Shown here: piece after piece, positions 39,009 to 64,000 of the stretch
How positions within the stretch are numbered: position 1 is the first letter of the stretch
Layout: each line of letters opens with the position of its first letter
Assembly: GCA_016705005.1 (NCBI GenBank)
Contig: JADIZB010000001.1
Location: 156,778 to 220,777, forward strand
Length of the DNA: 64,000 bases
Direction: 5' to 3'
Origin: Bacteroidales bacterium
Lineage (GTDB): Bacteria; Bacteroidota; Bacteroidia; Bacteroidales; Lentimicrobiaceae
Notes under the pieces: model-generated
The model's input: the letters and a program-made list of their open reading frames with translations, nothing else
Databases searched by the model: none
What the model was told of the DNA's origin: nothing
Translations under genes and position numbers: made by a program

Positions 39009-39036
39009 AGGATTGATTTATCGTTTTTATCTGTCG

Positions 39037-40056: not shown

Positions 40057-40073
40057 AGTTCAGGTTTAAATAT

Positions 40074-40771: not shown

Positions 40772-40805
40772 AAAAAAAAGAGGCTGGAAATGAATCAGCC
40801 TCTTT
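40772..40805 (-). terminator. Intrinsic terminator/attenuator after the DegT gene
   Basis: Minus strand aaagaggctg-attcatttc-cagcctctttttttt. Confidence 0.75.
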
Positions 40806-40825
40806 ATTATAAGGATCATTTCAAA

Positions 40826-49926: not shown

Positions 49927-50655
49927 ATGAAAAACTTATCCATCATCATTCCCGCCTACAATGAAGCAGCCACCATTCACCTGATACTGAACAGGATTCT
50001 CGAAGTAAAGTTTATTTATAATATTGATTATGAGATAATTGTTGTTAATGACTACTCAACAGATGGTACTGCTGAAGCACTGGTGGCATACAAAAACGAT
50101 CATCCGGGATTGAAAATGATCATACATAACCAGGAATCAAATCAGGGAAAAGGAGCCGCACTGCACAAAGGCATCGAATTGGCAACGGGTGACCTTGTTG
50201 TGATTCAGGATGCTGATCTTGAATATGATCCGAAAGAATACAATCTTCTTTTAAAGCCTTTTATGGATGGCGTTGCGGATGTTGTTTACGGATCAAGATT
50301 TAAAGGTATCGGACCTCACAGAATTTTGTTTTTCTGGCACTCCATTGGTAACAATTTCCTGACCTTTCTTTCAAACATGTTTACCAACCTGAACCTGACC
50401 GACATGGAAACATGTTATAAAATGTTCAGGGCTGATATTATAAAAAAAGTTGTTCTTACTGAAACCAGGTTTGGGTTTGAGCCTGAAGTGACTGCACGGA
50501 TTTCACGGGTGCCCGACATCCGTATCTATGAAGTAGGTATTGCGTATTATGGCCGGACCTATGAGGAAGGTAAAAAAATAGGAGCAAGAGACGGTTTCAG
50601 GGCCATTTTCTGCATCCTTAAATATAACCTCTTCGACAGAAGAACCTTCAGATAA
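49927..50655 (+). CDS. GT2 polyprenyl-phosphate glycosyltransferase (DPM1-like)
   Basis: IIIPAYNE, VNDYSTDGT, NQGKGAAL, QDADLEYDP, DMETCYK, FGFEPE. Confidence 0.92.
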   Translation: MKNLSIIIPAYNEAATIHLILNRILEVKFIYNIDYEIIVVNDYSTDGTAEALVAYKNDHPGLKMIIHNQESNQGKGAALHKGIELATGDLVVIQDADLEYDPKEYNLLLKPFMDGVADVVYGSRFKGIGPHRILFFWHSIGNNFLTFLSNMFTNLNLTDMETCYKMFRADIIKKVVLTETRFGFEPEVTARISRVPDIRIYEVGIAYYGRTYEEGKKIGARDGFRAIFCILKYNLFDRRTFR

Positions 50656-50681
50656 TTTTCTTCATTGAAAAAAAAGACAGG

Positions 50682-52487
50682 ATGAGAAATGATTCCAAAT
50701 GGTCGTTATACACGTTCATTATCCTGGCAGGCGCCATAGTTGCAATCAGGTTTATATCAGTCCCCTCAAGGGCTTTAAGCTGGGATGTCTTCGGTTATTA
50801 TCTTTATCTGCCTGCCACATTTATTTATGATGATCCTGGTCTGGTCAAAACTGAATGGCTTGATGGTGTAGTAGAAAAATATGAACCTTCACCTACCCTC
50901 TATCAACTTGTGCCTGCAGTTGATGGCAACCGGGTGATAAAATATACGGCGGGAATGGCATTGCTGTATTCCCCGTTTTTCTTTATTGCACACTGGATAG
51001 CACCGCTGTCAGGCTATCCTGCTGATGGATTCTCTCTTCCTTACCAGTTGATCGTCAGCTTTGGTGGTTTATTCTGGATTGTACTCGGAATCTATGCCTT
51101 CAGGAGAATATTATTAAAATTTTTCAACGATCAAACTACCCTGGTTATTCTGATACTGATTATTACCGGAACAAATTATTTTCATTTAGCCGCACTGGAT
51201 GGAACTCTGCTGACTCATAATATCCTTTTCACCCTTTATGCATTTTTACTGCTTTCGACCATTGCCTGGCACAGTAAACCATCTGCTGGCACTGCCATTT
51301 TCACAGGGTTGCTCTGTGGTCTGATTGCCCTGATCAGGCCTTCCGAAGCGATTTGCTTCCTGATCCCGTTGTTATGGAACACTGGTACCAGAAAAGCAAT
51401 ATATGATAAAATGTCGTTGCTGAGGCGACATCCCCATCATCTGGTTCTGGCGCTTTTCAGCGCTCTGTTGATCGGATCTGTCCAGCTTATATACTGGAAG
51501 AAATTCACAGGAGAATGGTTCTTTTATTCTTACGGTAATCCCGGGGAGGGCTTCAGGTTCTTTCCTCCTTATCTCGGTGAATTTCTTTTCAGCTTCAGGA
51601 AAGGCTGGCTTATTTACACGCCTTTAATGATCGCTGCCCTGGCAGGTTTTATCAGTCTTTACCGCCGGCACAGGGAAATCCTTCCTGCCATTGCAGTTTT
51701 CTTTATTTTAGATCTCTGGGTTGTGTCCTCCTGGAGTTGTTGGTGGTATGCCGGCGGTAGTTTCAGCGCCAGGGCCATCGTACCTGCTTACCTGGTACTT
51801 GCTTTTCCACTGGCATATCTTACCGAAGCCATGCGAGGCCATTGGCGCAGGATTGCAATGATCGTCGCCGGATTGCTTGTGTTGCTCAATTTATTCCAAT
51901 CCTGGCAGTTCTATTCCGGAATTATCGACAAGGAGCGCATGACCCGGGCTTATTATAATGCTATATTCGGCAAAATAGATGTTGACAAGGAAAAACTTGA
52001 CAAATTCCTTCTGGTTGAGCGCAGCACCGAGAGCAGTGAAACCATCAAACACACGGAAAGATACTCAGGTCAGGTAATTTTCGAAACCAACACCATCGCT
52101 GCAACCGATACAGCCGGTGCATTAAAATTGAGCCCGGAGAACCCATTTGCCCCGGGACCTGATATCCCATACAGTACCCTGACCATTAAAGATCATGTCT
52201 GGCTCAGATCCGGTGTTGAAGTATTTCTTCCGGAAGGGTATTCAGGAGCTCCCCCGCTACTGGTAACAGCCTTCCATTATAACGGACAGGCCTATAAATA
52301 CAGGGCTGAAGCCATTCCGGAACCTGACCCGGCCAGAGGAATGTGGCACAAAATTGAGTATTGGTACCTGAGTCCTGAAGTCAGAACAAACCATGATAAT
52401 CTCAAAGTGTACGTTTGGCATAGTGGGGAAACCCCGGTGTTTGTGAGGAATCTCAGGGTTGAGAAGTTTGAGTTGAAAAATGAATAA
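50682..52487 (+). CDS. GT-C-like integral membrane glycosyltransferase with a C-terminal CBM-like domain, copy A
   Basis: SWDVFGYYLYLP in the first loop; about 11 hydrophobic segments; LIRPS; W..WWYAG.SF..R; soluble C-terminal domain. Confidence 0.72.
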   Translation: MRNDSKWSLYTFIILAGAIVAIRFISVPSRALSWDVFGYYLYLPATFIYDDPGLVKTEWLDGVVEKYEPSPTLYQLVPAVDGNRVIKYTAGMALLYSPFFFIAHWIAPLSGYPADGFSLPYQLIVSFGGLFWIVLGIYAFRRILLKFFNDQTTLVILILIITGTNYFHLAALDGTLLTHNILFTLYAFLLLSTIAWHSKPSAGTAIFTGLLCGLIALIRPSEAICFLIPLLWNTGTRKAIYDKMSLLRRHPHHLVLALFSALLIGSVQLIYWKKFTGEWFFYSYGNPGEGFRFFPPYLGEFLFSFRKGWLIYTPLMIAALAGFISLYRRHREILPAIAVFFILDLWVVSSWSCWWYAGGSFSARAIVPAYLVLAFPLAYLTEAMRGHWRRIAMIVAGLLVLLNLFQSWQFYSGIIDKERMTRAYYNAIFGKIDVDKEKLDKFLLVERSTESSETIKHTERYSGQVIFETNTIAATDTAGALKLSPENPFAPGPDIPYSTLTIKDHVWLRSGVEVFLPEGYSGAPPLLVTAFHYNGQAYKYRAEAIPEPDPARGMWHKIEYWYLSPEVRTNHDNLKVYVWHSGETPVFVRNLRVEKFELKNE

Positions 52488-52506
52488 GTCCCGGAATGGA
52501 TTAATT

Positions 52507-55500
52507 TCAGGGGAACCTTACAGAAACATAAAAATCGTCCACATAAAATACCGACCGGCTGTTCCCCCAGAAAAACACCCTGACCTCGTCGTTCTCTGCG
52601 ACGCCTTCGGGAAAATAACCATAGCAGGCAATATCCGACCATTTATCCGGTGTAACCTGCCAGGAGCCTGAACTCACTGATGCAACATATATCGGTTTCC
52701 CATCACGGTGTTGCTGGATAAAAAGTGATGCTCCGGTATAATCCCCCGAGACCTTTGCTTTTACATATACTTCATATGGCTTTTTTGTCTGCATTGAGTG
52801 CGGGTGCCATTTGAACGAGTAACTACCGTGATTCAGGCTGTCGATGCGGTCAGAGAATCTTCCGCTCAGTGAATGAAGGCTATCCATCGCCGTAGCGTTT
52901 CCATTCCAGCCAAAGACAGGTTTCTCGAAATCATTGAATGATGAAAATCCATTGATGTCTGTTCCTTCCGAAAAAATCATCAGACTACCGGATGCCACCT
53001 TGTGGTTTTCAATAAGATCGGGCCATCTGTTTCGGAAAGACGCAAAAGCCACGTCGGGAAGCGGGGCATAAAGGTTGATCAGTGCAATTTTTTGCGTATT
53101 AAGCTGTTCAATACATCCGATGAGATCGCTCAAACCCTTCTGATATGTTAGGTTATGCAGAAAATATCTTCCCTTGAAACCAACTTCCATCAATGATTCT
53201 ACCATTAACTGTTTATCATCGGTATTACAAACCAAATTCGTTATCCCTGATCTGACGACATCTTGGGCCACTGCACGATACTTTTCTGCCTTTTCCTGCC
53301 CGTACGAAGAAGTCGGATCGAACCGGTTGAAAATCAGCAGGGCAAGCAACATCCATAAGGCGCAAACCAGAATAATTCTGAATATTACAGGCTTATGTCT
53401 GAATTGAATAATAATCAGTAGTGTGATCAGGATCAGCAAAACAAAATACGAAATCAGGAATCCGATGAAAACAGGCCGGTTAGAATAGGAGAAAGTGATC
53501 GTGTGCTTTCCGGGACCGCAAATCACACTGATAAACATTTTATTGGAAACAAACGCTGGTGCTTCCTTGCCATCTATGGTCACTCTCCATCCCGGATACC
53601 AGGCCTGAAGCAGGGTCACAGCGACCTTACGCTGGCAGTTCACGATGGCCTCTGCGTAGCCTGGATAAAACCCGGTTATCTTTACCGAATCACCTGGTGA
53701 GCATTTTAAAACGCCGAAATCTTTCCTGTAAACCTGCTTCTCAACAAAAAGGGCTGTCCCGATGTCGGTTGATGACTCCAGATCGCCTTTACCAAAGGGC
53801 AGTACCTTGTCCGACAAATAAACAATCTCATTATTGAGGATTGAACCGGCAAGTTCAGGCAAAGAATCGGCAAGCTGATCGTATCCGTTCAACCTGAACG
53901 AATTGTACCCTTCGAATGAAACCGTCTTGTTGAAAATATTGGTATTCTGCCAGATTACAGAGCAGGAGGCATTTTTTTCCGTATTGACTGAAACGGGCAT
54001 CCCGGGAACCGGAAGCGGAAATCCGTCAGCCTTCTGCTTCAGAATATGATTGATTTCAAAGGGATCGATTCCTGCGGAAACAACGGTATAATATGTATTT
54101 AACTGAACGGCTGCCAACATTTCAACCACAATCAACACTGGTATATACCTGTATCCGGAACCGGACTTCCGGATAACGAGAAGTAGAAAGGTCAGAACGA
54201 CAACCATTTGTATTACCGCCTGAATTACAATATGCTCATGCCGGGAAGGCTGCCGAAGCCAGTCAGGAAAGTCACCCGCTGGTTTGAGAAATGAAAAACC
54301 CTCATGGTTCATAGCGACCAGCGAATTGGCCATCAGAGCAATTATTACTACTGTAAAAGCGCTGGCGATGATGATCAGCCGCTTTCTGTAAATCATCGGG
54401 TCCGACAGATAAGATCCAAGCCCGGATGCGGCCGCTGGAATGATGGCAAGGACTGCAAAAAAGACAAAGAAACTTGAATGCCTGAACAGGTTGAACAAGG
54501 GCACATAATGGTAGAGCATCCCCCTGACCGGTGTATATTTGCCAAATGATGCCAGCAGCGCAACCAGTCCGAAAACCAGAAAAACATTCAGCAGGAACTT
54601 TCTCCTTGAAAACAGCACCAGAACGAAAAAGAACAACACGATGAGTCCTGCATAAGCATTGTTCATCGAGATATCAGTATCATACCATTCAACCTCTTTA
54701 ACTGTTGCAAAAGGAAGTAAAAAGGAGATGGCAGAGCGGGGGGAAAAGGGCATAAACCAGGCATCTTCAATGCTCACCCCACTCAGCCGGCCAACCTGCC
54801 CTGAGACCTGGAAGAAAGTTATGGCAATGACCAGAAGTGACAATGCAGTTATCAGTAAAAGGGCCCCGTTGAGTTTCAGCAATTGCAACACTTCCTCTTT
54901 TTTACCGGCCGAAAAATACCTGATGAAGTATACCGTGAACACGGCAATCATCAGGTAAATCAGTATTGCCCACATGGCCTGATATCCGCCGGTAACAAGC
55001 AGGAATGTAAAAATGGCCGTACGGATCGCATCCGGAAACTTTCGTTCTTTCTGCAGCCGGATAAAATAATACAGAACAAAGGGTATCCAGGTTGCTGCTA
55101 TGATTCCGAACATCTCCTGCCCGTGTCCGACAAAGAAACCCGACATCAGATAGGCAACTCCTGCGACAAACTGCGCTCTCCTGTCATCGGTAAAATGCCG
55201 CGAAAGCAAAAACATCCCCCATCCCGACAGGGAAATGTGGAGGATAAACAGCAAATGCAGCGTAAGATAGGAATAACCGGTGGTCAGCCCGATGATGAAT
55301 GTTTCAGGATACCAGACCGAACGCAGATCGGCATGAATCGGATAACCACAATGTGTATATGGGTTCCAGAAGGGGAAAACCCCGTTTTGCAGACATTCAC
55401 CCACATGGTAACGCCAGGGAAGGTAACAGCCCAGCATATCCCACTTAAAGCCGTTCTGAAGGAAAGCAACCTGCCAGTATGCCAGAATAGCCAGAGCCAC

Positions 55501-55545
55501 AAAAGCCGGAAAAATATAATAATCAGCCCGTTTTTTCTGAAGCAT
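52507..55545 (-). CDS. YfhO family membrane protein (GT-C-like) with a C-terminal CBM-like domain
   Basis: 1012 aa; WDMLGCYLPW, PFWNPYTHCGYP.HAD, QAWYPGWRVTIDG, ITFSY. Confidence 0.85.
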   Translation of the reverse strand: MLQKKRADYYIFPAFVALAILAYWQVAFLQNGFKWDMLGCYLPWRYHVGECLQNGVFPFWNPYTHCGYPIHADLRSVWYPETFIIGLTTGYSYLTLHLLFILHISLSGWGMFLLSRHFTDDRRAQFVAGVAYLMSGFFVGHGQEMFGIIAATWIPFVLYYFIRLQKERKFPDAIRTAIFTFLLVTGGYQAMWAILIYLMIAVFTVYFIRYFSAGKKEEVLQLLKLNGALLLITALSLLVIAITFFQVSGQVGRLSGVSIEDAWFMPFSPRSAISFLLPFATVKEVEWYDTDISMNNAYAGLIVLFFFVLVLFSRRKFLLNVFLVFGLVALLASFGKYTPVRGMLYHYVPLFNLFRHSSFFVFFAVLAIIPAAASGLGSYLSDPMIYRKRLIIIASAFTVVIIALMANSLVAMNHEGFSFLKPAGDFPDWLRQPSRHEHIVIQAVIQMVVVLTFLLLVIRKSGSGYRYIPVLIVVEMLAAVQLNTYYTVVSAGIDPFEINHILKQKADGFPLPVPGMPVSVNTEKNASCSVIWQNTNIFNKTVSFEGYNSFRLNGYDQLADSLPELAGSILNNEIVYLSDKVLPFGKGDLESSTDIGTALFVEKQVYRKDFGVLKCSPGDSVKITGFYPGYAEAIVNCQRKVAVTLLQAWYPGWRVTIDGKEAPAFVSNKMFISVICGPGKHTITFSYSNRPVFIGFLISYFVLLILITLLIIIQFRHKPVIFRIILVCALWMLLALLIFNRFDPTSSYGQEKAEKYRAVAQDVVRSGITNLVCNTDDKQLMVESLMEVGFKGRYFLHNLTYQKGLSDLIGCIEQLNTQKIALINLYAPLPDVAFASFRNRWPDLIENHKVASGSLMIFSEGTDINGFSSFNDFEKPVFGWNGNATAMDSLHSLSGRFSDRIDSLNHGSYSFKWHPHSMQTKKPYEVYVKAKVSGDYTGASLFIQQHRDGKPIYVASVSSGSWQVTPDKWSDIACYGYFPEGVAENDEVRVFFWGNSRSVFYVDDFYVSVRFP

Positions 55546-55634
55546 ACTAACTGAAAAGGATTGGTGAAGCGAATGTAAGGAGAAATTCGTGAATCATTCA
55601 GGGTAAAATATAGCTATCTTAGCCACTGCCAATG

Positions 55635-55642
55635 CAAAGTTA
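55635..55642 (-). promoter_or_regulatory. -7 promoter box for yfhO, next to the start of the divergent GT2
   Basis: taactttg on the minus strand, 5 bp from ATG 55648 on the plus strand. Confidence 0.45.
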
Positions 55643-55647
55643 CAGTT

Positions 55648-56571
55648 ATGAATTTTTCAGTTTCGGTGGTCATCCCCTGCTTCAACGAAAAAGATAATAT
55701 TGACATCCTCTACCGGCATCTATCAATAGTGCTTGAAGCTTACCCTGACTATGAGCTGATCTTTGTGGATGACGGAAGTACGGACGATACGCTCGAAACC
55801 ATCCGTTCTGTCGCAGAAAAAGATCCCAGGGTCAGATACATCTCTCTTTCGAGAAATTTCGGGCACCAGTATGCCCTGAAAGCAGGGCTGGACCACGCCG
55901 GGGGTGACTGTGTCATCAGCATGGATGCCGATATGCAGCATCCGCCGGAACTGATCCCTGCAATGATTGAAAAATGGCGTGAAGGTTACGAGGTGGTAAA
56001 TACCATCAGGGGAGATCAGAAATCACTATCAGCCTCAAAAAAGCTCTCATCCGGTTTATTTTATTTTATCATCAACAGGCTTTCTTCGGTTGAAATCAAA
56101 CCCGGAATCGCAGACTTCCGCCTGCTCGACCGAAAAGTTGTTGATGCCCTGAAACAGTTCAGTGAAAATCACCTTTTTTTGAGGGGGCTGATACCCTGGA
56201 TGGGATTCAGGCAGACATCCGTTCATTTTGAACCCGCTGACAGGCATAAAGGAACAACAAAATATACTTTTACCCGAATGCTGCGACTCGCACTTGATGG
56301 GATCACTTCATTCAGCAGCAGACCTCTTTACCTTTCGATCTCAGTAGGATCGATCATAGCAGGTATTGCTTTCCTGTATGGGATTTATGCTGTTTATGTG
56401 CATCTTTTTACCGATGACGCCTTGCCGGGATGGACTTCCATTACGGCTAGCGTCCTGTTCATCGGTGGCATACAATTGATTATGCTGGGAATAATCGGTA
56501 TTTATCTTGGGAAGCTTTTCATTGAAAACAAAAAGAGACCTAACTATATCATCAGAACAAAGAATTTCTGA
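55648..56571 (+). CDS. GT2 undecaprenyl-phosphate glycosyltransferase (GtrB/ArnC-like)
   Basis: VIPCFNE, VDDGSTD, LSRNFGHQ, MDADMQHPPE, DFRLLDRKVV, two C-terminal TMs, ENKKRPNY. Confidence 0.93.
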   Translation: MNFSVSVVIPCFNEKDNIDILYRHLSIVLEAYPDYELIFVDDGSTDDTLETIRSVAEKDPRVRYISLSRNFGHQYALKAGLDHAGGDCVISMDADMQHPPELIPAMIEKWREGYEVVNTIRGDQKSLSASKKLSSGLFYFIINRLSSVEIKPGIADFRLLDRKVVDALKQFSENHLFLRGLIPWMGFRQTSVHFEPADRHKGTTKYTFTRMLRLALDGITSFSSRPLYLSISVGSIIAGIAFLYGIYAVYVHLFTDDALPGWTSITASVLFIGGIQLIMLGIIGIYLGKLFIENKKRPNYIIRTKNF

Positions 56572-56741
56572 TGTTCTGACGATCCATGGCAAGGAAGCAG
56601 GATTGCCGCACAGCAACGTTTCCGACACCAAAGAATGAGGTTAGTCATTGAAAATTCCGGAAGTCAAGAACCAGTGACTGATCTCCGCATCATATTTTTT
56701 ACCAGGAATTCTTCGTTATTTCGTCATTAAAACATTTTGCG

Positions 56742-58592
56742 ATGAAAATTAAGCTTCCAGACCTGAAACACCGGTATTCCTTCTTCGCTTTAACACTTCT
56801 GGTGCTGACCATTGCCATTGTCAGGGTCATGACGCTGTCGGATAACGAACTGAGCTGGGATGTCTTCGGGTATTATATTCATCTGCCGGCGGCTTTTATC
56901 TATCACGATCATGCCCTGCAGAACATGGGGTGGATTCAGGATATCATGTCAAAATACCCGGTAACCGGAACCCTCTACCAGTTAAGCACCGGGCCCGATG
57001 GAAATCCGATCTTCTTTTTTCTGATGGGCATGTCATTTTTTTATGCCCCCTGGTTTTTTGCCGGTCATATACTGGCAATGAGTTCCGGTTATCCTGCCGA
57101 TGGTTTCAGCCTTCCATACCAGTATTCCATTGCCCTCGGTGCCATCTTGTATACCATTATCGGCCTGGTTTACCTCCGGAAAATTCTGCTCGGGCTGTTC
57201 AATGATAAAATCACTTCACTGATCCTCGTTATTGTTGTACTTGGGACCAATTACCTTCATTTTATGACGGTAAAGAACCTTGAAACAGCCAATATCCTTT
57301 TTATGATGGTGACCCTCATTACCTGGAACACCATCCGTTGGTTACAGGATCATAAACTGCTCAATATGATTGCCCTGGCTGCCCTGGTTGTGCTTACCGC
57401 CCTGGTGAAACCAAGTGAAGTCATGGTGCTGCTTATTCCGCTGCTCTGGGGGGTGTATAACCGCGAATCACTGGCCGTTAAACTGAAAGAATTCTGGCAA
57501 TACAGATCGCAGGTGCTGATTGCCGTTGGTGTTGGTTTGATCCTTGCCCTTCCCCAGATGCTCTATTGGAAAACCGAAACCGGTCACTTCCTGTTCGACA
57601 GTTACAAAAATCCAGGGGTCGGACTGGATTTGAATTCACCGCACATCATTGAGGTGTTGTTCAGCTTTAAGAAGGGATGGCTGATCTACACCCCGGTTAT
57701 GATTTTCGCCCTCCTTGGTTTCTCATCGCTTTACCGAAGAAACAGGGCGATATTCACCCCGGTGCTTATTTATTCCCTCATCGCGTTCTACATCCTTGCC
57801 AGCTGGACTGAATGGTGGTATGGCGCTTCTTTCAGCATACGACCGATGATCACCCTCTATCCGTTACTGGCAATACCACTCGGGTACATGGCTGAAGCTG
57901 TTTATAACAGGAAAAATGCCTCCCGGATAATTTTTACTACTGCTGTGGCAGGCTTCGTGGCATTAAACCTTTTCCAGACATGGCAGCTGAACAATTACAT
58001 AATAGATCCTTACCGGATGACGAAGGACTACTATTTCGCCATTTTCGGAAAAACAACCATCAGTCCCGAAACGCGCAACCTGCTGGCCATCGACCGGCCT
58101 TTGACTGAGACCGGAACTTTTACAAAGGAAACGGAATACAACCGGAGAAATATCGGATATTATGATTTTGAACAGCCGGACACCAACAGATATCAGAATT
58201 TTGTGACAGATTCGCTACATGGAAAGGTATTCCGTCTTGACGAAAACATGGGATTTTCTCCCGAAATCAGAACTTCGTACAGTGGTCTGACCAATAAGGA
58301 CCATGCCTGGATCAGGGCGGGTGTGGATGTTTTTATTCCTGACGGCTACAGTGAAGAACTGCCCTTGCTGGTGCTCACCTTTGAGCGGAAGGAAGGTGCC
58401 TATGGCTACCGCTCTTACGGAATTGATACTTCAATCTATAAACCCGGCCAATGGGGCAAAATTCAGGTGGATTACCTTACACCCAACATCCGGAGCAACG
58501 ATGACTTTTTCAAGATATACATCTGGCACCGTGGAAAAAGTCCGGTATTCATCGACAACCTGAAAGCGGATGTTTTTGAGCCCCGCTATTGA
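56742..58592 (+). CDS. GT-C-like integral membrane glycosyltransferase with a C-terminal CBM-like domain, copy B
   Basis: SWDVFGYYIHLP, GYPADGFSLPYQ, LVKPSE, W.EWWYG.SF..R; paralog of 50682..52487. Confidence 0.72.
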   Translation: MKIKLPDLKHRYSFFALTLLVLTIAIVRVMTLSDNELSWDVFGYYIHLPAAFIYHDHALQNMGWIQDIMSKYPVTGTLYQLSTGPDGNPIFFFLMGMSFFYAPWFFAGHILAMSSGYPADGFSLPYQYSIALGAILYTIIGLVYLRKILLGLFNDKITSLILVIVVLGTNYLHFMTVKNLETANILFMMVTLITWNTIRWLQDHKLLNMIALAALVVLTALVKPSEVMVLLIPLLWGVYNRESLAVKLKEFWQYRSQVLIAVGVGLILALPQMLYWKTETGHFLFDSYKNPGVGLDLNSPHIIEVLFSFKKGWLIYTPVMIFALLGFSSLYRRNRAIFTPVLIYSLIAFYILASWTEWWYGASFSIRPMITLYPLLAIPLGYMAEAVYNRKNASRIIFTTAVAGFVALNLFQTWQLNNYIIDPYRMTKDYYFAIFGKTTISPETRNLLAIDRPLTETGTFTKETEYNRRNIGYYDFEQPDTNRYQNFVTDSLHGKVFRLDENMGFSPEIRTSYSGLTNKDHAWIRAGVDVFIPDGYSEELPLLVLTFERKEGAYGYRSYGIDTSIYKPGQWGKIQVDYLTPNIRSNDDFFKIYIWHRGKSPVFIDNLKADVFEPRY

Positions 58593-58626
58593 GGCTTACT
58601 TTCCCTGAATTTATAAAGATAATTTC

Positions 58627-60060
58627 TCAATCAATGAATTTGATCTTATTCAGGGCATAGGCAACCATCCTGATCAGCAACCATCCATGCCGGAAGCGTG
58701 AGATGTTGGTGTCGCCGTATTTCCTGGCCCTGTAGCGGATGGGTACTTCCAGCAGTTTCAGGTTAAGTTTTGACGAGCCGAAAATAAGATCAAAATCACC
58801 AAACGGATCAAAGTTACCAAAGTAGGAACGGTTCGCCGCCAGTCTCCGGTAATTTTCAGCTGTCAGTACTTTTGTCCCGCAAAGGGTATCTTTGATGCGC
58901 TGACCCAGCAACCAGGAAAACATAACAGAGAAAAATTTATTTCCCATCATATTGAGGGTGCGCATGGCCTCCTCCTCCATCGGGTAAACCAGGCGTGTTC
59001 CGTTGATGAATTCTCCGCGGCCGGTTGCCAGGGCATTGTAAAACTTCGGAAGATCTTCAGGCGGTACCGTAAGGTCAGCATCCAGGATCATCAGGACATC
59101 TCCCGTTGCATGGTCATATCCCTTACGAACAGCATCACCCTTTCCTTTGCCCTCCTGAATAAGAAATTTAACATCTCTTTTCCCGATATAAGCTTCACAA
59201 ACGCGTTTAATTTCATCCAGGGTGCCATCGGTGGAGTTACCCTCAACAAAAATAATCTCGGTATGTCGTCCCATTTCCGGGGTACGGATAACAGCCTCTT
59301 CAATGTTGCCTTTTTCATTTCTCGCAGGAATGATCACCGATACTGAAAAGTCACTGTTGTTGTGCGGGCGGAGTTGCGGCAGCCTGGCCACGATGTATCC
59401 TGTAAGGCACAGGCTGTTGAATAACGGCAGGTAAGCGATGTATTTATTGAAGAACCATGAGATCAGTGGTATGTTAACAGGAACCAGAAACCGCTTTCCT
59501 GACTTCACCACATCAAATCCTTCAACCTGCAACAGGTTGATCACATCACCCCGGTTGAGCCAGTTGAGACGTGGATGAGGCATTTTCAACCCGAGTTTCT
59601 GGGCAATCCACATCAGGGGTTCCCATAAAAAGCTATGGTAGGAAATCAGGATACGCGATCCCGGATGAACTACTTTTTTAAGCTCACTGAATGCAGCCTG
59701 AATGTCCTCCAGATAACCCAGTGTATCAGAAATAACAACAAAATCATAGTGCTCCTTGATGTTCAGCTGCTCTGCATCCATCACTTCAAACTTCAGGTGG
59801 GGATATTTTTCCCCGGCAATCCTGATCATTGAAGGAGAAAGATCGATACCCATTCCCGCCGATGGTTTCAGGGCGTTAAGCAGATAACCGGTTCCGCATC
59901 CGATTTCAAGCACCCTGGAACCCTCCGGAATATTGAACCTGAAAAACCGCACCAGGTTTTTATAGTAATATAAATTCCTGCGAATGTACCTGTCGCGCTT
60001 TTGAGCGATGCGCTCCATGGATTCAGTTACCCTTCGCTTATTTTCCGTTAACAGGCTCAT
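58627..60060 (-). CDS. Class I SAM methyltransferase / GT2 fusion
   Basis: VLEIGCGTG, GIDLS in the N-terminal half; IIPARNE, GKGKGDAV, ILDADL, DTLCGTK in the C-terminal half. Confidence 0.9.
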   Translation of the reverse strand: MSLLTENKRRVTESMERIAQKRDRYIRRNLYYYKNLVRFFRFNIPEGSRVLEIGCGTGYLLNALKPSAGMGIDLSPSMIRIAGEKYPHLKFEVMDAEQLNIKEHYDFVVISDTLGYLEDIQAAFSELKKVVHPGSRILISYHSFLWEPLMWIAQKLGLKMPHPRLNWLNRGDVINLLQVEGFDVVKSGKRFLVPVNIPLISWFFNKYIAYLPLFNSLCLTGYIVARLPQLRPHNNSDFSVSVIIPARNEKGNIEEAVIRTPEMGRHTEIIFVEGNSTDGTLDEIKRVCEAYIGKRDVKFLIQEGKGKGDAVRKGYDHATGDVLMILDADLTVPPEDLPKFYNALATGRGEFINGTRLVYPMEEEAMRTLNMMGNKFFSVMFSWLLGQRIKDTLCGTKVLTAENYRRLAANRSYFGNFDPFGDFDLIFGSSKLNLKLLEVPIRYRARKYGDTNISRFRHGWLLIRMVAYALNKIKFID

Positions 60061-62164
60061 TTGTTGTATTTAATGTTTTTATTGGTCGGTAAATCTCCAT
60101 TCTGAAATTATCGAAATAGACGAGGTTTTTACCCTTATTCCAGGCATATAGCTTGATTTTCTTTCCCGCCATAAAAGAGGGAATAACCGCTTTCAGCCTG
60201 ACCTGGTACCACTCCGACTCCTTTAATTCGGTATCTGGAGAGGCTGTAGTATAAAGAAGCGGGGAATCCTCACCTGAGAGTACAATACGGATATCGTCGG
60301 GCTTCCCGGATGCCTTTACTATAACATCAATCTGGTCTCCATCCCTGAGCACCTCCGGGTCGATGCTGAAAGCATAGGGATTCTGGGCATTTGTAACAAT
60401 GCTGCTGCGGCCTGAGAAACTTTTATTGTAACTCAGCACCCCAGGAAACGACAACCCATCTGATTTCAGGGGCAGTTCAGGGTTGAGCGGGGATGCTTCT
60501 GCCCCGTTAAAAATCAACTTCCGGTCAGCAACATTACCTTCCCCATCAATTTCAACAGGCTCCATAAGCACCTGGTATCCATCAGAATACACTGCCCTAA
60601 AACGATAACCCCGGGTTTTCAGATCGAGCAGATCAAGGATTCTCTGATCATGAACAGGAGGACCGATATATATTATTTTCCCCTTATAGGCATCGAAAAG
60701 TGAATCAATGCTGACATGGTTATTCCCCCAGTGAGAAATCATACCGGTAAAGCCATCCAGAATATAAAAATCTGGATAGATTTTTTGTAAATCAGGGACA
60801 TACCGCTTTATGCTGTAAGCATTACCAAAGTATAAGCCGGCAGCAGGTGATGAACCAGGGTTGGCACAAATGACTGCATGTTTCTCTGATGTACCGGTAG
60901 CTGCAAGCCATGCATTTTCCCAGACCGGATTCCTCTCAGTAGTATAAATGGCTTCCTTTCGGGCAATTCCATAGGGTATAACCAAGATGATACAGGATAC
61001 CGTAGCCAGGCCTGTAATGACATTTCCAACAACTTTTGAGGATACAAATGATACAGTTAGACGAAGGATTAATATGAAATTAATCGCAGCAATGCTTTCA
61101 TAAGGAAGCAGGTAAACTTCTTTGGGTTGTTTTGCCACCAGCAGATATCCTGCGGCCTGGGCCAGCGAAACAGCCAGCAGCAGCCTGGCCGCTGAAGCAT
61201 CAGGCCAGTACTTCTTTACCATTCTGAAACCAAGAAGAATCAGCAAAACCAGTATTGATAATCCAAAGATAATGGCAAGCACAGGACTGACCATGAAAAG
61301 ATTGACCAGATCTCCGGAATACCTTGAAGTATCAATGACCCCTTTCGTTCCGGTTCCATATTGCCCGGTATGAAAGAACAGTCTGTAAATCCAGTAGAAC
61401 ATGTTCGGATACAACCGGATTACCGGAAGGGTGAACACAACAAATGAGGCCCCGCTGGTCAACAGAAACCATATTTTTTCCTTTATAGGATGAAAAAGAA
61501 CCAGGGGTATGATCAATAAAGGGGCGAACAATATCTTGGAGGCCATTCCAAATCCGCAGATAATGCCGAACAGCAATACAAATTTACCGGATCCGCTTGT
61601 ACTTTTCCTGAAATACCATATTATTGAAGCTGCTGCTACAGCAAAAGCAGCCAGCATCTGCATCAATTCCTGCGTAATTCTGGTGTAGCCATTAAAGAGG
61701 ATAAATCCTGAAATAAAAGGGGTAAGCTGAAGCAGTAAGGCATACCAGATATTCCCTGTTTTGCTGAACACAAAGATTGCCAGAATTAACAAAGCCAATG
61801 AGCCTATGATGGCCGTAGCAACATTCAATATACGTATGTAGTGCTCCGGTTCTGACAATACAGCCCTGGTCAGGGATTCACCGCGACGGTCAGCCATCCA
61901 TGCACCCTGTAGAACCAAACCACCGGTTACCTGCATGGTTGTACCCGGATGATCAATATGCCCTGCAAGCCTGAAACGGGCCATGTTCAGAGAATTGAAG
62001 AGGTAGGCATACTCAGGATCATATCCACCACCATACCAGGCTTTATCGCGCGCCCTAATGGTGTTGATTGATGTGAACAGAAGAATAGCCGGTATGACAA
62101 ACAATGTGGCAATAATCAATAACTGCCTGAGATGTTTAACGATTGTCGCTGAGGTTTTTCCCAT
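60038..62164 (-). CDS. GT-C-like multi-TM protein with a C-terminal CBM-like domain
   Basis: 708 aa; YDPEYAYLFNSL..HIDHPGT first-loop motif; FGMASKI; about 11 TMs; soluble tail. Confidence 0.68.
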   Translation of the reverse strand: MGKTSATIVKHLRQLLIIATLFVIPAILLFTSINTIRARDKAWYGGGYDPEYAYLFNSLNMARFRLAGHIDHPGTTMQVTGGLVLQGAWMADRRGESLTRAVLSEPEHYIRILNVATAIIGSLALLILAIFVFSKTGNIWYALLLQLTPFISGFILFNGYTRITQELMQMLAAFAVAAASIIWYFRKSTSGSGKFVLLFGIICGFGMASKILFAPLLIIPLVLFHPIKEKIWFLLTSGASFVVFTLPVIRLYPNMFYWIYRLFFHTGQYGTGTKGVIDTSRYSGDLVNLFMVSPVLAIIFGLSILVLLILLGFRMVKKYWPDASAARLLLAVSLAQAAGYLLVAKQPKEVYLLPYESIAAINFILILRLTVSFVSSKVVGNVITGLATVSCIILVIPYGIARKEAIYTTERNPVWENAWLAATGTSEKHAVICANPGSSPAAGLYFGNAYSIKRYVPDLQKIYPDFYILDGFTGMISHWGNNHVSIDSLFDAYKGKIIYIGPPVHDQRILDLLDLKTRGYRFRAVYSDGYQVLMEPVEIDGEGNVADRKLIFNGAEASPLNPELPLKSDGLSFPGVLSYNKSFSGRSSIVTNAQNPYAFSIDPEVLRDGDQIDVIVKASGKPDDIRIVLSGEDSPLLYTTASPDTELKESEWYQVRLKAVIPSFMAGKKIKLYAWNKGKNLVYFDNFRMEIYRPIKTLNTTNEPVNGK

Positions 62165-62186
62165 ACTGGTTTCACCAATGAGTGCT

Positions 62187-62194
62187 CAAAGATA
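62187..62194 (-). promoter_or_regulatory. -7 promoter box for the 708-aa gene and the MTase-GT2 fusion
   Basis: tatctttg on the minus strand, 23 bp above the start. Confidence 0.55.
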
Positions 62195-62259
62195 CAAATT
62201 AGAATGTGCATCTCCTGACATCAGGGAGGCAAAGGAGGTTATCTGACCTGATCCCGGAA

Positions 62260-63252
62260 CTATGCTTTCAGTATCTTATCAATGGCTTCAAGTTCCTCTC
62301 CGGAGAACGCCAGATTATTGATGGCATCCAGGTTATCGTCAAGTTGTGAAATGCTGCTGGCTCCTATCAGAACAGAAGTGATGCCTTCATTCCGGAGAAT
62401 CCATGCCAGTGCCATCTGTGAAAGTTTCTGACCCCTCCGGGCAGCTATGGCATTCAACTTCCCGGCCTTCTCAACTTTCTCAGTTGTTACCTGGCTTTGC
62501 TGCAGAAAGCCATGTTCACTTGCTGCCCTCGAACCCGGAGGAATCCCGTTCAGGTATTTATCTGTAAGCAATCCCTGAGCAAGTGGTGAATAAGCGATAC
62601 AACCCATATTTTCATCACGGAGAACATCCAGTAAACCATTCTCTACCCACCGGTCAAACATTGAAAAACGGGGCTGATGAATCAGGCAACGCACACCAAG
62701 ACTTTTCAGGATTTCGACCGCCATGCGTGTCTGTGTTGCTGAATAATTTGAAAGACCGATGTAGAGTGCTTTTCCTTGTCTTAAAATCTGCTCCAATGCA
62801 CCCATGGTCTCTTCAAAAGGGGTATCGGGGTCGGGCCGGTGAGAATAAAAAATGTCAACATACTCCACACCCAGTCGTTTCAAACTCTGATCCAGGCTGG
62901 CTATAAGATATTTTTTTGATCCCATTTCACCATAAGGTCCCGGCCACATATAGTATCCGGCTTTGGTTGAAATTATGAGCTCATCCCGGTATCTGTGCAA
63001 ATCCTCCTTCAGTATTCTTCCGAATGTTTCTTCGGCTGAACCTGCAGGCGGGCCATAATTATTGGCCAGATCAAAGTGGGTGATGCCCCGGTCGAATCCA
63101 TGCAGCACCAGACTTCTGCTCAATTGAAATATATCAACACCGCCAAAGTTATGCCATAGTCCGAGTGAAACCATAGGTAGTTTCAACCCACTCCCGCCGC
63201 AACGCTTATAGGGAATGGATTCGTAACGCGCGCTTTCTGCTGTATATGACAT
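62260..63252 (-). CDS. mgrA: L-glyceraldehyde 3-phosphate reductase (aldo/keto reductase, YghZ/MgrA)
   Basis: SGLKLPMVSLGLWHNFG, FDLANNYGPPAGSAE, STKAGY.MWPGPYG, YSHRPDPDTP. Confidence 0.93.
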   Translation of the reverse strand: MSYTAESARYESIPYKRCGGSGLKLPMVSLGLWHNFGGVDIFQLSRSLVLHGFDRGITHFDLANNYGPPAGSAEETFGRILKEDLHRYRDELIISTKAGYYMWPGPYGEMGSKKYLIASLDQSLKRLGVEYVDIFYSHRPDPDTPFEETMGALEQILRQGKALYIGLSNYSATQTRMAVEILKSLGVRCLIHQPRFSMFDRWVENGLLDVLRDENMGCIAYSPLAQGLLTDKYLNGIPPGSRAASEHGFLQQSQVTTEKVEKAGKLNAIAARRGQKLSQMALAWILRNEGITSVLIGASSISQLDDNLDAINNLAFSGEELEAIDKILKA

Positions 63253-63293
63253 AGAAAATACAATTAGGATTGTCAGAACTATAAAAACGAAGC

Positions 63294-64000
63294 TTATTGT
63301 TTATCCCCTTTCAGGTAACGGATAAAAGCCTTATAATCTGCCATAATCAGATTAATACTCACTGGCTTGTAAAACCATATCAGCAGCCCGATGATCCCTC
63401 CCCACAGAAAAAAAGCTGTAAATTGGAGCAATGAGAAAACAATGGCTGTTTCCGGTGAAACAAGATAGAATGAAAGCAGATAAACAAGACTGGCTTCACG
63501 GGTACCAAAACCTGCGAGAGTAATAGGTATTATGGTTACCAGGCTCATGAGGCTCAGGATGAAACTGATATCTATGATATTAAGTTCAATCCCGACCGCT
63601 TTGAGTATCATTTGATTGGCAAGGTAGAAAAGAAAGTAGGCCAGCAAAGTCAGTAACCAGGGAATAAACATAGCAGGTTTAAACATTCCGTTCCAGGTTT
63701 CCATGATAAATCTGAAACTGACGGGAGAGGACTCGGGTTTGACCAGAATTTTCAGAAACCAGTATCCGGCTCCCCAAACCATCATCATCGCGAAAGCAGT
63801 AGCCAACAGATAAACGAACCCGCTGAAATTACCAAGAAGTTTATAAAAATAAAGCATACCTGTACCACCAAACCAGATCAGGAGTGCAAAATCAAAAATC
63901 CTGTCTGCCACCAGTGTTTTAAAAGACCTGTAAAAAGTGATGCCGGTATCTTCTCTCACATAGTACAAACGGGCAATTTCACCAACCCTTCCAGGAGTAA
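63294..64000 (-). CDS. Lysylphosphatidylglycerol synthase TM domain (UPF0104, flippase-like) protein, 5' end outside the window
   Basis: Frame stays open to the window edge: TPGRVGEIAR, ADRIFD, IPITLAGFGTREA. Confidence 0.85.
   Translation of the reverse strand, partial: TPGRVGEIARLYYVREDTGITFYRSFKTLVADRIFDFALLIWFGGTGMLYFYKLLGNFSGFVYLLATAFAMMMVWGAGYWFLKILVKPESSPVSFRFIMETWNGMFKPAMFIPWLLTLLAYFLFYLANQMILKAVGIELNIIDISFILSLMSLVTIIPITLAGFGTREASLVYLLSFYLVSPETAIVFSLLQFTAFFLWGGIIGLLIWFYKPVSINLIMADYKAFIRYLKGDKQ

What the first reader, a model, noticed from the sequence alone, without database searches (positions are those of the whole stretch)
49927..64000. 14-kb lipid-carrier glycosylation locus: three GT2 donors and four GT-C-like transferases
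Seen: GT2 > GT-C(A) >< YfhO <> GT2 > GT-C(B) >< MTase-GT2 < GT-C < (AKR) < flippase-like UPF0104 protein. No wzx, wzy, wza or wzc is recognisable. Established: GT2 + flippase + GT-C is the GtrB/A/X and ArnC/EF/T logic for adding single sugars outside the cytoplasm. Inference: a modular kit that adds several different sugars to LPS, glycoproteins or T9SS cargo. Each GT2 is next to a candidate partner transferase.
Basis: partly seen in the sequence, partly recalled or inferred. Interest (0 to 1): 0.7.

Follow-up and report, generated by a model that had tools for sequence, protein, structure and literature searches.

The report
Modular lipid-carrier sugar-decoration gene cluster
A Lentimicrobium-type bacterium carries a real, conserved but cassette-variable gene cluster of three lipid-sugar-making enzymes and four membrane sugar transferases that all end in the same sugar-binding-like domain. 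It most likely adds single sugars to a cell-surface glycan outside the cytoplasm, which is a richer version of a known scheme and not a new kind of system.

Summary
The gene order is GT2a > memA >< YfhO <> GT2b > memB >< MTase-GT2 < memC < AKR < UPF0104, exactly as described.

- **Transferases.** The two Pfam-less membrane families give confident AlphaFold models (memA/memB pLDDT 84, memC pLDDT 89). Their best PDB matches are all GT-C enzymes such as ArnT, STT3/PglB, Emb, ALG12, PMT and DPY19. The 1012-aa protein belongs to the YfhO family.
- **Donor enzymes.** GT2b is a full-length GtrB/ArnC-type polyprenyl-phosphate glycosyltransferase. GT2a and the GT2 half of the fusion match DPMS, GtrB and ArnC best.
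- **Shared domain.** All four GT-C proteins share one C-terminal, divergent CBM_4_9-like domain (hhalign 97-99%). Their membrane cores are unrelated at the profile level.
- **Conservation.** Across 20 related genomes the locus stays in place but varies by cassette. MTase-GT2+memC is the constant core (19/20). YfhO+GT2b always travel together (10/10). memA and memB are optional. GT2a persists without memA.
- **Wider links.** The MTase-GT2/memC pair recurs at 26-33% identity, once inside a Wzy-type polysaccharide locus. UPF0104 also sits in the flippase position of a second, ArnT/ArnC-like operon in this genome.

Verdict: a new variant of the three-component extracytoplasmic glycosylation scheme. 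The acceptor and the sugars are unknown. The scan had already noted the shared C-terminal module on this same stretch.

The parts
49927..50655 (+). GT2a: 242-aa soluble GT2 of DPM1/AglJ/PpgS type with a DAD motif and no TM segment. It is a candidate polyprenyl-phosphate hexose synthase.
   Evidence: PF00535 5e-33. Best NCBIfam hit AglJ, 99.8 bits, below cut-off. Best PDB hits GtrB 8e-15, DPMS 9e-14 over residues 4-232, and ArnC. No TM segment. Present in 17/20 related loci, 9 of them without memA.
50682..52487 (+). memA: 601-aa GT-C-fold membrane protein of a Pfam-less family, with an invariant WD after TM1 and a C-terminal CBM_4_9-like domain (about residues 478-601). Optional cassette.
   Evidence: No Pfam, NCBIfam or PDB sequence hit. 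More than 1600 homologs, a few carrying PF13231 or named GT39. AF2 pLDDT 83.7, pTM 0.82. The top 13 Foldseek PDB hits are all GT-C. Invariant W34 and D35. Present in 8/20 related loci.
52507..55545 (-). YfhO-family GT-C protein, 1012 aa: YfhO core (about 1-740, WD at residues 35-36) plus a roughly 270-aa extension that ends in the shared CBM-like domain (about 885-1012).
   Evidence: PF09586 33.2 bits, only the C-terminal piece aligned. Weak PgfM1/PgfM2 hits. Most homologs carry PF09586. Invariant W35 and D36. Always co-occurs with GT2b (10/10). A distant Flavobacteriales homolog is also paired with a 319-aa GT2.
55648..56571 (+). GT2b: 307-aa GtrB/ArnC/CsbB/PgfS-type polyprenyl-phosphate glycosyltransferase with two C-terminal TM helices, divergent from the YfhO gene.
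   Evidence: PDB GtrB (5EKP) 4e-79 over residues 4-302; ArnC 2e-44. NCBIfam PgfS 293 bits and ArnC 168 bits, both below the equivalog cut-offs. TM segments at 231-249 and 269-287.
56742..58592 (+). memB: 616-aa paralog of memA (40% identity over the full length) with the same WD motif and C-terminal domain. Optional cassette downstream of GT2b.
   Evidence: BLASTP 2e-155 against memA. The C-terminal domain HMM scores 6e-47. Present in 6/20 related loci, always after GT2b.
58627..60060 (-). MTase-GT2: 477-aa fusion of a class I SAM methyltransferase (about 28-190) with a DPMS/AglJ-like GT2 (about 240-477), no TM segment. It overlaps the end of memC by 23 nt.
   Evidence: Methyltransf_23 4e-19 and PF00535 6e-24. 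For the GT2 half, PDB DPMS 2e-13 and ArnC 2e-12. Adjacent to memC in 19/20 related loci at 70-95% identity. Also adjacent to memC homologs at 26-33% identity.
60038..62164 (-). memC: 708-aa GT-C-fold membrane protein of a small Pfam-less family. It has invariant D49 and D71 in the first loop, a middle alpha/beta periplasmic-type domain (about 425-540), and a C-terminal CBM_4_9-like domain (about 575-697).
   Evidence: No Pfam or PDB sequence hit. 122 homologs. AF2 pLDDT 89.4, pTM 0.89. Foldseek ArnT 1.7e-5 (TMt 0.50), then DPY19, EmbC, STT3, Pmt4, AftA. Invariant residues. Present in 36/39 genomes of the family.
62260..63252 (-). Aldo-keto reductase (YghZ-like), same strand, lying between UPF0104 and memC. 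Its role in the pathway is unknown.
   Evidence: PF00248 1e-72. NCBIfam L-glyceraldehyde-3-phosphate reductase subfamily, 441.5 bits against a cut-off of 448. Next to memC in 17/20 related loci.
63294..64000 (-). UPF0104 / PplT (MprF flippase-domain family) membrane protein, 326 aa; the gene continues to position 64274, beyond the window. It is the candidate lipid-linked-sugar flippase and the first gene of the probable UPF0104-AKR-memC-MTase-GT2 transcription unit.
   Evidence: PF03706 2e-40 full length. TIGR00374 flippase-like domain. Present in 12/20 related loci. A second GT-C > GT2 > UPF0104 operon lies on contig C39. Also found near a 29%-identical memC homolog.

Best explanation
The locus is a set of exchangeable cassettes for extracytoplasmic single-sugar glycosylation through lipid-phosphate-sugar donors. 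On the cytoplasmic face, each GT2 transfers a sugar from a nucleotide sugar to a polyprenyl (undecaprenyl) phosphate. GT2b is a GtrB/ArnC-type enzyme. GT2a and the GT2 half of the MTase-GT2 fusion are DPMS/AglJ-type. The fused SAM methyltransferase probably methylates the sugar of its own product or substrate. The lipid-linked sugar is then flipped, most plausibly by the UPF0104/PplT protein, which is the first gene of the UPF0104-AKR-memC-MTase-GT2 unit. On the outer face, GT-C-fold transferases move the sugar to the acceptor using an acidic residue in the first external loop (WD in memA, memB and YfhO; D49/D71 in memC). The pairings are MTase-GT2 with memC (constant core) and GT2b with YfhO (constant pair), with memB as an optional second user of the GT2b donor. 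This resembles PgfS serving PgfM1 and PgfM2. memA is an optional user of the GT2a donor. The shared C-terminal CBM_4_9-like domain on all four GT-C proteins most likely binds the acceptor, which would then be a glycan: a surface polysaccharide, an O-antigen-like chain, or the glycan of a glycoprotein. Shown here: gene content, folds, family relations, the shared domain and the synteny patterns. Inferred: lipid-phosphate-sugar chemistry for GT2a and MTase-GT2, flipping by UPF0104, a periplasmic location and glycan binding for the C-terminal domain, sugar methylation, and the acceptor.
For: Gene layout and domains. GT2b matches GtrB 4e-79 and ArnC 2e-44 over the full length and has 2 TM helices. 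The best solved relatives of GT2a and of the GT2 half of the fusion are DPMS, GtrB and ArnC, and the best NCBIfam hits are AglJ, Dol-P-hexose transferase and PpgS. memA and memC give confident models whose top PDB matches are exclusively GT-C enzymes. Acidic residues just after TM1 are invariant. The shared C-terminal domain gives hhalign 97.4-98.6%, E 1e-11 to 9e-16, while the TM cores are unrelated at 3-13%. In the models this domain matches CBM22, CBM16 and a porphyran-binding CBM. Relatives reach PF02018 above its cut-off. Synteny in 20 genomes shows whole-cassette presence or absence, with MTase-GT2/memC in 19/20 and YfhO/GT2b in 10/10. The MTase-GT2/memC pair recurs at 26-33% identity, once inside a Wzz/PGT/WecG/Wzy_C locus. 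GT2 and a separate MTase lie near memC homologs in two further loci. A distant YfhO is paired with a GT2. A second GT-C > GT2 > UPF0104 > epimerase operon exists in this genome. Literature precedents are CsbB/GtcA/YfhO and related systems (PMC5836110, PMC8035078) and UPF0104 as the C-terminal domain of the Dol-P glycosyltransferase AglD (PMC5898192).
Against: No biochemical data exist, and neither sugars nor acceptor are identified. GT2a and MTase-GT2 lack TM anchors and score far below every equivalog cut-off, so they could be ordinary soluble GT2s. GT2a persists without memA in 9 loci, which weakens that pairing. More distant memA homologs stand alone without a neighbouring GT2. The only experimentally shown activity in the UPF0104 family is phospholipid flipping (MprF). 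The genome has two GtrA-family genes elsewhere that could do the flipping. UPF0104 is missing from 8/20 loci. The side of the membrane on which the C-terminal domain lies was not verified. The window's own C-terminal domains do not reach the Pfam CBM_4_9 threshold. The catalytic-loop region of the memA model has low confidence (residues 28-38, pLDDT below 50).
Confidence: 0.6

Rival explanations
1. The mechanism is the same, but the acceptors are proteins. The GT-C enzymes would be PMT/Pgf-like protein O-glycosyltransferases that put single sugars, or the first core sugar, on Ser/Thr of periplasmic and surface proteins.
For: Some memA and memC homologs carry PF13231 (PMT_2) or are named GT39. 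Pmt4 and Pmt1-Pmt2 are among the structural matches. GT2b is closest to PgfS, and the YfhO protein weakly matches PgfM1/PgfM2 of the S. mutans protein-glycosylation system. A 2025 review says the OTase, ligase and core flippase of Bacteroidota O-glycosylation are undiscovered (PMC12871550).
Against: memA, memB and YfhO are optional among close relatives, which does not fit a general protein-glycosylation step. A CBM-like module suggests a carbohydrate acceptor. One distant MTase-GT2/memC pair sits in a Wzy-type polysaccharide locus. No target protein is encoded nearby.
Confidence: 0.15
2. The locus modifies lipid A or LPS core, as ArnC/ArnT does, to change surface charge or antimicrobial-peptide resistance.
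For: ArnT is the best structural match of memC (1.7e-5, TMt 0.50). ArnC is among the best matches of all three GT2s. A Kdo transferase gene lies 5 kb upstream, and a DegT aminotransferase, an acetyltransferase and dehydratase genes lie 8-12 kb upstream.
Against: The genome already has a compact ArnT/ArnC-like operon with a sulfatase-family (EptA-like) neighbour on contig C39. Four different transferases with CBM-like domains are more than lipid A decoration needs. The upstream LPS-related genes are separated from the locus by unrelated housekeeping genes.
Confidence: 0.1
3. The cluster is not one system. It would be a hotspot where independent GT2/GT-C modules with different acceptors have accumulated. 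AKR and UPF0104 would be bystanders, and GT2a and MTase-GT2 might be ordinary soluble GT2s that do not make lipid-phosphate sugars.
For: Cassettes come and go independently. The same C-terminal domain also occurs on GT-C proteins elsewhere in the genome. The genome holds at least 13 further PMT_2 genes. memA-type genes are solitary in more distant taxa. GT2a and MTase-GT2 have no TM anchor.
Against: The position between MurF-Alr and GreA is fixed across the genus. MTase-GT2 and memC overlap by 23 nt in the window and by 4 nt in L005. UPF0104, an MTase, FrhB and GT2 recur around a 29%-identical memC homolog. The shared acceptor-side domain argues for related acceptors.
Confidence: 0.15

Closest known systems
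CsbB/GtcA/YfhO (B. subtilis), GtlA/GtlB (Listeria) and PgfS/PgfM1/PgfM2 (S. mutans) multi-component transmembrane glycosylation systems
   Same: A GtrB-type GT2 (GT2b, closest to PgfS) is paired with a YfhO-family GT-C enzyme. One GT2 may serve two GT-C enzymes, as in Pgf. Sugar transfer outside the cytoplasm from an Und-P-sugar is the inferred logic (PMC5836110, PMC8035078).
   Different: The host is Gram-negative Bacteroidota, so there is no teichoic acid. The YfhO protein carries an extra 270-aa extension with a CBM-like domain. No GtrA/GtcA flippase lies in the locus; UPF0104 is there instead. The pair is embedded with two further GT2s and three non-YfhO GT-C proteins.
GtrA/GtrB/GtrX O-antigen glucosylation (Shigella and Salmonella phages)
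   Same: GT2b is a full-length homolog of GtrB (4e-79 to Synechocystis GtrB). A serotype-like variable GT-C partner decorates a pre-formed glycan. Cassette variability between strains is shared.
   Different: The locus is chromosomal and not phage-borne. There is no GtrA. The GT-C partners belong to other families, and several modules sit side by side.
ArnC/ArnE-F/ArnT lipid A aminoarabinose pathway
   Same: The scheme is a GT2 making an Und-P-sugar, then a flippase, then a GT-C. ArnT is the best structural match of memC, and ArnC is among the best matches of the GT2s.
   Different: There is no ArnA/B/D-type sugar-tailoring set in the locus and no EamA/SMR flippase. The CBM-like domain is absent from ArnT. 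A separate Arn-like operon exists elsewhere in the genome.
Haloferax AglD / AglJ with AglS (dolichol-phosphate-sugar steps of archaeal N-glycosylation)
   Same: GT2a and the fusion's GT2 domain hit AglJ best. The UPF0104 domain is physically fused to the Dol-P glycosyltransferase AglD in archaea (PMC5898192; 10.1101/2022.03.11.483950).
   Different: Here UPF0104 is a separate gene. The setting is bacterial and undecaprenyl-based. The scores lie far below the equivalog cut-offs.

Membership tests
Three-component polyprenyl-phosphate-sugar glycosylation systems (GtrB-type GT2 + flippase + GT-C) | A GT2 of the polyprenyl-phosphate glycosyltransferase class (GtrB/ArnC/DPMS) | tested here: met
   GT2b matches GtrB 4e-79 and ArnC 2e-44 over the full length and has two C-terminal TM helices. 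For GT2a and MTase-GT2 the match is only 'best hit' level (DPMS, GtrB, ArnC at 1e-12 to 1e-15), with no TM helices.
Three-component polyprenyl-phosphate-sugar glycosylation systems (GtrB-type GT2 + flippase + GT-C) | A GT-C-fold integral membrane transferase with a conserved acidic residue in the first external loop | tested here: met
   The memA and memC models match only GT-C enzymes at the top of the PDB search. W34-D35 (memA family), W35-D36 (YfhO family) and D49/D71 (memC family) are invariant. Which side of the membrane the loop faces was not verified.
Three-component polyprenyl-phosphate-sugar glycosylation systems (GtrB-type GT2 + flippase + GT-C) | A small GtrA-family or ArnE/F (SMR/EamA) flippase encoded with the pair | tested here: not met
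   No such gene lies in the locus. The two GtrA-family genes of the genome are on contigs C4 and C5. A UPF0104/PplT protein occupies the slot instead.
Three-component polyprenyl-phosphate-sugar glycosylation systems (GtrB-type GT2 + flippase + GT-C) | Conserved genetic linkage of the GT2 with its GT-C | tested here: met
   MTase-GT2/memC is adjacent in 19/20 loci and YfhO/GT2b in 10/10. Both pairs recur in distant relatives.
Three-component polyprenyl-phosphate-sugar glycosylation systems (GtrB-type GT2 + flippase + GT-C) | Formation of Und-P-monosaccharide and its transfer to an extracytoplasmic acceptor | not testable with these tools
   This needs enzymology or lipid LC-MS and mutant glycan analysis.
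YfhO family (PF09586) | Match to the family profile above the gathering score | tested here: met
   33.2 bits against a cut-off of 28.5, but only profile positions 787-835 align. The genome-level scan gives 28.1 bits, just under the cut-off. Most of 120 homologs carry PF09586. Membership is therefore weak but consistent.
PMT_2 / GT39-GT83 type GT-C (PF13231) | Match of memA, memB and memC to the PMT_2 profile | tested here: not met
   No hit at E<=0.01 for the window proteins. Only some homologs reach it (P0365 at 31.1 bits). The third memA paralog scores 20.9 bits, below the cut-off. The window proteins are fold-level relatives, not demonstrable family members.
CBM_4_9 (PF02018) carbohydrate-binding modules | Match of the shared C-terminal domain to the profile; jelly-roll fold; carbohydrate binding | tested here: inconclusive
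   The window domains do not hit. One of 15 aligned members hits at 1.3e-4. Relatives found with the domain profile reach 29.5-38 bits, above the cut-off, on the same stretch. The models match CBM22, CBM16 and a porphyran-binding CBM at E about 2-4e-3. Binding was not testable.
UPF0104 / PplT (MprF flippase domain, PF03706) | Full-length match to the profile; multi-pass membrane protein | tested here: met
   139.4 bits over profile positions 2-291. Multiple hydrophobic segments. Flippase activity and substrate were not testable.

The most novel reading that the evidence does not exclude
The invariant MTase-GT2/memC pair would make a methylated sugar on a polyprenyl-phosphate carrier and transfer it in the periplasm. 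Together with the optional GT-C cassettes, this locus would then supply missing late or periplasmic steps of Bacteroidota glycan assembly. These could be the undiscovered transferase or ligase steps, or the O-methyl-sugar decorations, of the phylum's general O-glycosylation. In this reading UPF0104 acts as a polyprenyl-phosphate-sugar flippase and the shared CBM-like domain acts as a common acceptor reader.
Probability: 0.12. Interest if true: 0.75.

Novelty: new variant of a known kind. Interest (0 to 1): 0.5.

Why it matters
If the model holds, four things follow.

1. The locus defines two GT-C families that have no Pfam model. memA/memB is a large family (more than 1600 homologs among the candidates scored), and memC is a small one.
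2. It defines a widespread, unmodelled CBM_4_9-like domain (about 3700 representative clusters) that is grafted onto unrelated GT-C cores. This gives a handle on how GT-C enzymes pick their acceptors.
3. It offers genetic evidence that UPF0104/PplT proteins serve as lipid-linked-sugar flippases in bacteria.
4. It points to a methyltransferase fused to a lipid-phosphate-sugar synthase, which is untested chemistry.

The cassette polymorphism looks like serotype-type surface variation in Lentimicrobiaceae, which are common in anaerobic digesters and sediments. The overall logic is already well known, so this refines and extends that knowledge without overturning it.

Tried and rejected
- Sequence searches of memA, YfhO and memC against PDB, both as single proteins and as profiles A1 and A2, gave nothing significant. 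Fold-level comparison was needed.
- Pfam and NCBIfam gave no hit for memA, memB or memC. The holin hit for memC (E 0.0036) was dismissed as chance.
- Profile-profile comparison of the three TM cores showed no relation (3-13% probability). The four GT-C proteins are therefore not simply paralogs.
- The idea that GT2a is the dedicated partner of memA was rejected as strict, because 9 loci keep GT2a without memA.
- The idea of a T9SS link was considered. One distant YfhO gene lies next to PorZ, and Por_Secre_tail genes lie near some homologs. Such genes are abundant in this phylum and none is in the window locus, so this was not adopted.
- I tried to work out the membrane topology by hand from hydropathy and the positive-inside rule. 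It was ambiguous and I abandoned it.

Full report
**Observation**

The window is G000:C1:156778-220777 of a 5.1-Mb, 46-contig genome. Names attached to the closest homologs place it in Lentimicrobium-type Bacteroidota.

| Gene | Coordinates | Size |
|---|---|---|
| GT2a | 49927-50655 (+) | 242 aa |
| memA | 50682-52487 (+) | 601 aa |
| YfhO-like | 52507-55545 (-) | 1012 aa |
| GT2b | 55648-56571 (+) | 307 aa |
| memB | 56742-58592 (+) | 616 aa |
| MTase-GT2 | 58627-60060 (-) | 477 aa |
| memC | 60038-62164 (-) | 708 aa |
| AKR | 62260-63252 (-) | 330 aa |
| UPF0104 | from 63294 (-) | 326 aa |

Fetching the contig beyond the window shows that UPF0104 is complete, ends at window position 64274, and scores PF03706 2e-40. 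Behind it lie a stand-alone methyltransferase, HIT and GreA. Upstream lie PdxA and a MurF-Alr fusion. No Wzx, Wzy, Wza or Wzc family was found in the flanks.

**The three GT2s**

- GT2b aligns end to end with the solved GtrB of Synechocystis (4e-79) and with ArnC (2e-44). It has the two C-terminal TM helices of that class. Its best NCBIfam model is PgfS (293 bits, below the equivalog cut-off).
- GT2a has no TM helix. Its best solved relatives are GtrB, the Pyrococcus dolichol-phosphate mannose synthase (residues 4-232) and ArnC.
- The GT2 half of the 477-aa fusion also has no TM helix and has the same best relatives. Its best NCBIfam models are AglJ, a Dol-P hexose transferase and PpgS.
- GT2b is therefore securely a lipid-phosphate-sugar synthase. 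For the other two this is the most likely class but remains an inference.
- The N-terminal half of the fusion is a class I SAM methyltransferase with intact glycine-rich and acidic motifs.

**The four membrane proteins**

- memA and memB are 40% identical over their full length.
- Neither they nor memC hit any Pfam, NCBIfam or PDB sequence, even as profiles.
- With alignments of homologs (A1, 30 sequences; A2, 38 sequences), AlphaFold2 gave confident models. memA reached pLDDT 83.7 and pTM 0.82. memC reached pLDDT 89.4 and pTM 0.89.
- Foldseek against the PDB returned only GT-C enzymes at the top. For memA these were EmbA/B, STT3, PglB, ALG12 (TMt 0.50), AftA, ArnT and Pmt4. For memC they were ArnT (1.7e-5, TMt 0.50), DPY19, EmbC, STT3, Pmt4 and AftA.
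- E-values are modest (1e-5 to 1e-3) and identities are 9-16%. This is fold-level kinship, not family membership.
- Each family has invariant acidic residues just after the first TM helix, where GT-C enzymes place their catalytic residue: W34-D35 in memA/memB, W35-D36 in the YfhO family, and D49 and D71 in memC.
- The 1012-aa protein passes the YfhO gathering score only through a C-terminal piece. Most of its 120 listed homologs carry PF09586, and some are named YfhO.

**A shared C-terminal domain**

- All four GT-C proteins end in a beta-rich domain of about 120 aa.
- An HMM built from the memA family alone finds it in memB, in the YfhO protein and in memC. It also finds it in a third memA-type paralog 20 kb away and in a PMT_2-type protein on contig C20.
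- Profile-profile comparison of the domain between the three families gives 97.4-98.6% probability (E 1e-11 to 9e-16). The TM cores show no relation (3-13%).
- In both models the domain matches CBM22, CBM16 and a porphyran-binding CBM.
- A profile of 15 copies (A4) finds 3717 representative clusters at E<=1e-3. Most are at the C-terminus of proteins of about 600 aa, sometimes in two or three tandem copies.
- Several of these reach Pfam CBM_4_9 above its cut-off on the same stretch.
- The domain is best described as a divergent, unmodelled branch of the CBM_4_9 superfamily that has been grafted onto unrelated GT-C cores.
I confirm it here independently.

**Conservation and modularity**

memC is present in 36 of 39 genomes of the family, which is a single GTDB genus. 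I fetched 20 loci around it and compared their ORFs with the window proteins. The locus keeps its place but varies by whole cassettes:

| Type | Layout | Loci |
|---|---|---|
| 1 | Full set, as in the window | 2 |
| 2 | GT2a > memA, then MTase-GT2 < memC | 5 |
| 3 | GT2a > YfhO < GT2b > memB, then the core | 3 |
| 4 | GT2a > YfhO < GT2b, then the core | 4 |
| 5 | GT2a, then the core | 2 |
| 6 | Core only | 3 |
| - | memC without the fusion | 1 |

- MTase-GT2/memC is the constant core (19/20). The two genes overlap by 23 nt in the window and by 4 nt in L005.
- YfhO and GT2b always co-occur (10/10).
- memB, when present, follows GT2b, and memA follows GT2a. However, GT2a is kept in 9 loci without memA.
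- The AKR is next to memC in 17/20 loci, and UPF0104 is present in 12/20.
- The GT2s are far better conserved (70-95% identity) than the GT-C proteins (37-64% outside the nearest relatives).
- Further away, memA-type genes stand alone, but the memC pairing persists:
  - A 26%-identical memC homolog is preceded directly by a 502-aa MTase-GT2. That pair lies inside a locus with a NusG-like gene, Wzz, sulfate-activation genes, WecG, an initiating phosphoglycosyltransferase and Wzy_C.
  - A 33%-identical homolog has MTase-GT2 > MTase > memC.
  - Two others have a GT2 and a separate MTase nearby, one of them also with UPF0104 and FrhB.
  - One homolog is solitary.
- A Flavobacteriales YfhO homolog is paired with a 319-aa GT2.
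- The second stated refutation, that the genes are scattered in close relatives, also did not occur.

**The flippase question**

- The locus has no GtrA or ArnE/F-type gene. The genome's two GtrA genes are elsewhere.
- UPF0104 is the MprF flippase domain, also called 'PplT' (10.1101/2022.03.11.483950). It forms the C-terminal domain of the archaeal Dol-P glycosyltransferase AglD (PMC5898192). It is the predicted flippase GpgF of a glycolipid operon (PMC12713373).
- Contig C39 of this genome carries a tight operon: PMT_2-type GT-C > GT2 (314 aa) > UPF0104 > epimerase/dehydratase, divergent from a sulfatase-family gene. This is an Arn-like arrangement with UPF0104 in the flippase slot.
- This is good genetic support, but the activity remains unproven.

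**Interpretation**

The best reading (confidence about 0.6) is a cassette-variable kit for extracytoplasmic monoglycosylation through lipid-phosphate sugars. It has a constant MTase-GT2/memC unit, possibly delivering a methylated sugar, a YfhO/GT2b unit, and two optional extra transferases. The shared CBM-like domain and the polysaccharide-locus context of a distant pair favour a glycan acceptor.

Three alternatives cannot be excluded:

- The acceptors are proteins.
- The acceptor is lipid A or LPS core.
- The cluster is a mere hotspot of independent modules.

A 2025 review states that the OTase, the ligase and the core flippase of Bacteroidota O-glycosylation are unknown, and that the glycans are often methylated (PMC12871550). 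This is the basis of the more novel, low-probability reading.

**Comparison and verdict**

The closest known systems are CsbB/GtcA/YfhO, GtlA/GtlB, PgfS/PgfM1/PgfM2 (PMC5836110, PMC8035078), GtrABX and ArnC/EF/T.

The locus shares their logic and meets three defining features: a GtrB-type GT2, a GT-C partner and conserved linkage. It lacks their flippase type. It adds the following:

- two Pfam-less GT-C families;
- a common CBM-like domain;
- a methyltransferase fusion;
- a conserved AKR;
- an unusual density of four GT-C genes in 12 kb.

I rate it a new variant of a known kind, with interest 0.5.

Noticed in passing
G000:C1:239010-241804 (L036:1011-3805), about 19 kb beyond the window end: A third memA-type paralog (660 aa) is followed after 35 nt by a 258-aa ORF. 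That ORF has no TM segment and carries two more copies of the shared C-terminal domain. The raw reading frames overlap, so this looks like one gene of about 950 aa split by a frameshift or an assembly error. Relatives with 2-3 tandem copies do exist.
   Followed up: partly
G000:C39:37357-43761 (L034:3358-9761): An Arn-like operon: PMT_2-type GT-C (544 aa) > GT2 (314 aa) > UPF0104 (295 aa) > NAD-dependent epimerase/dehydratase, divergent from a sulfatase-family (EptA/LtaS-like) membrane protein. It is a probable lipid A or envelope modification unit and an independent case of UPF0104 in the flippase slot.
   Followed up: partly
window 37956-41956 (-): A block of nucleotide-sugar genes: a 4,6-dehydratase-type gene, an epimerase-type gene, a hexapeptide acetyltransferase and a DegT aminotransferase. 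It would make an N-acetylated amino-deoxy sugar and is conserved upstream in L004. It could feed one of the GT2s, but unrelated genes separate it from the locus.
   Followed up: no
loci L009-L028 compared with the window: The cytoplasmic GT2s are 70-95% identical across the genus. The GT-C proteins, outside the nearest relatives, are only 37-64% identical. Six genomes have short memC forms (about 540 aa) that lack the CBM-like domain. This suggests fast, possibly diversifying, evolution on the acceptor side.
   Followed up: partly
L030:1-13635: In a distant relative the MTase-GT2/memC pair lies in a Wzy-type polysaccharide locus, directly after ATP sulfurylase/APS kinase and a CysQ-like phosphatase. 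This hints at a sulfated and methylated polysaccharide.
   Followed up: no
L032:3549-9120: A 36%-identical YfhO homolog with the same long architecture is divergently adjacent to a PorZ-like T9SS component, with Por_Secre_tail genes nearby and no GT2. It may be coincidence, but it is the only hint of a T9SS/A-LPS connection.
   Followed up: no
G000 whole genome: The genome is very rich in GT-C genes. It has 13 PMT_2 matches above cut-off, 2 YfhO, 3 memA-type genes, memC, and 4 UPF0104 genes.
   Followed up: partly
L025:3383-5728 (-): The one memC homolog without an adjacent MTase-GT2 sits beside an MBOAT, a memB-like protein and a 781-aa DUF6311 membrane protein that carries a CBM_4_9 domain above cut-off. 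This is another transferase-like membrane core with the same kind of C-terminal module.
   Followed up: no
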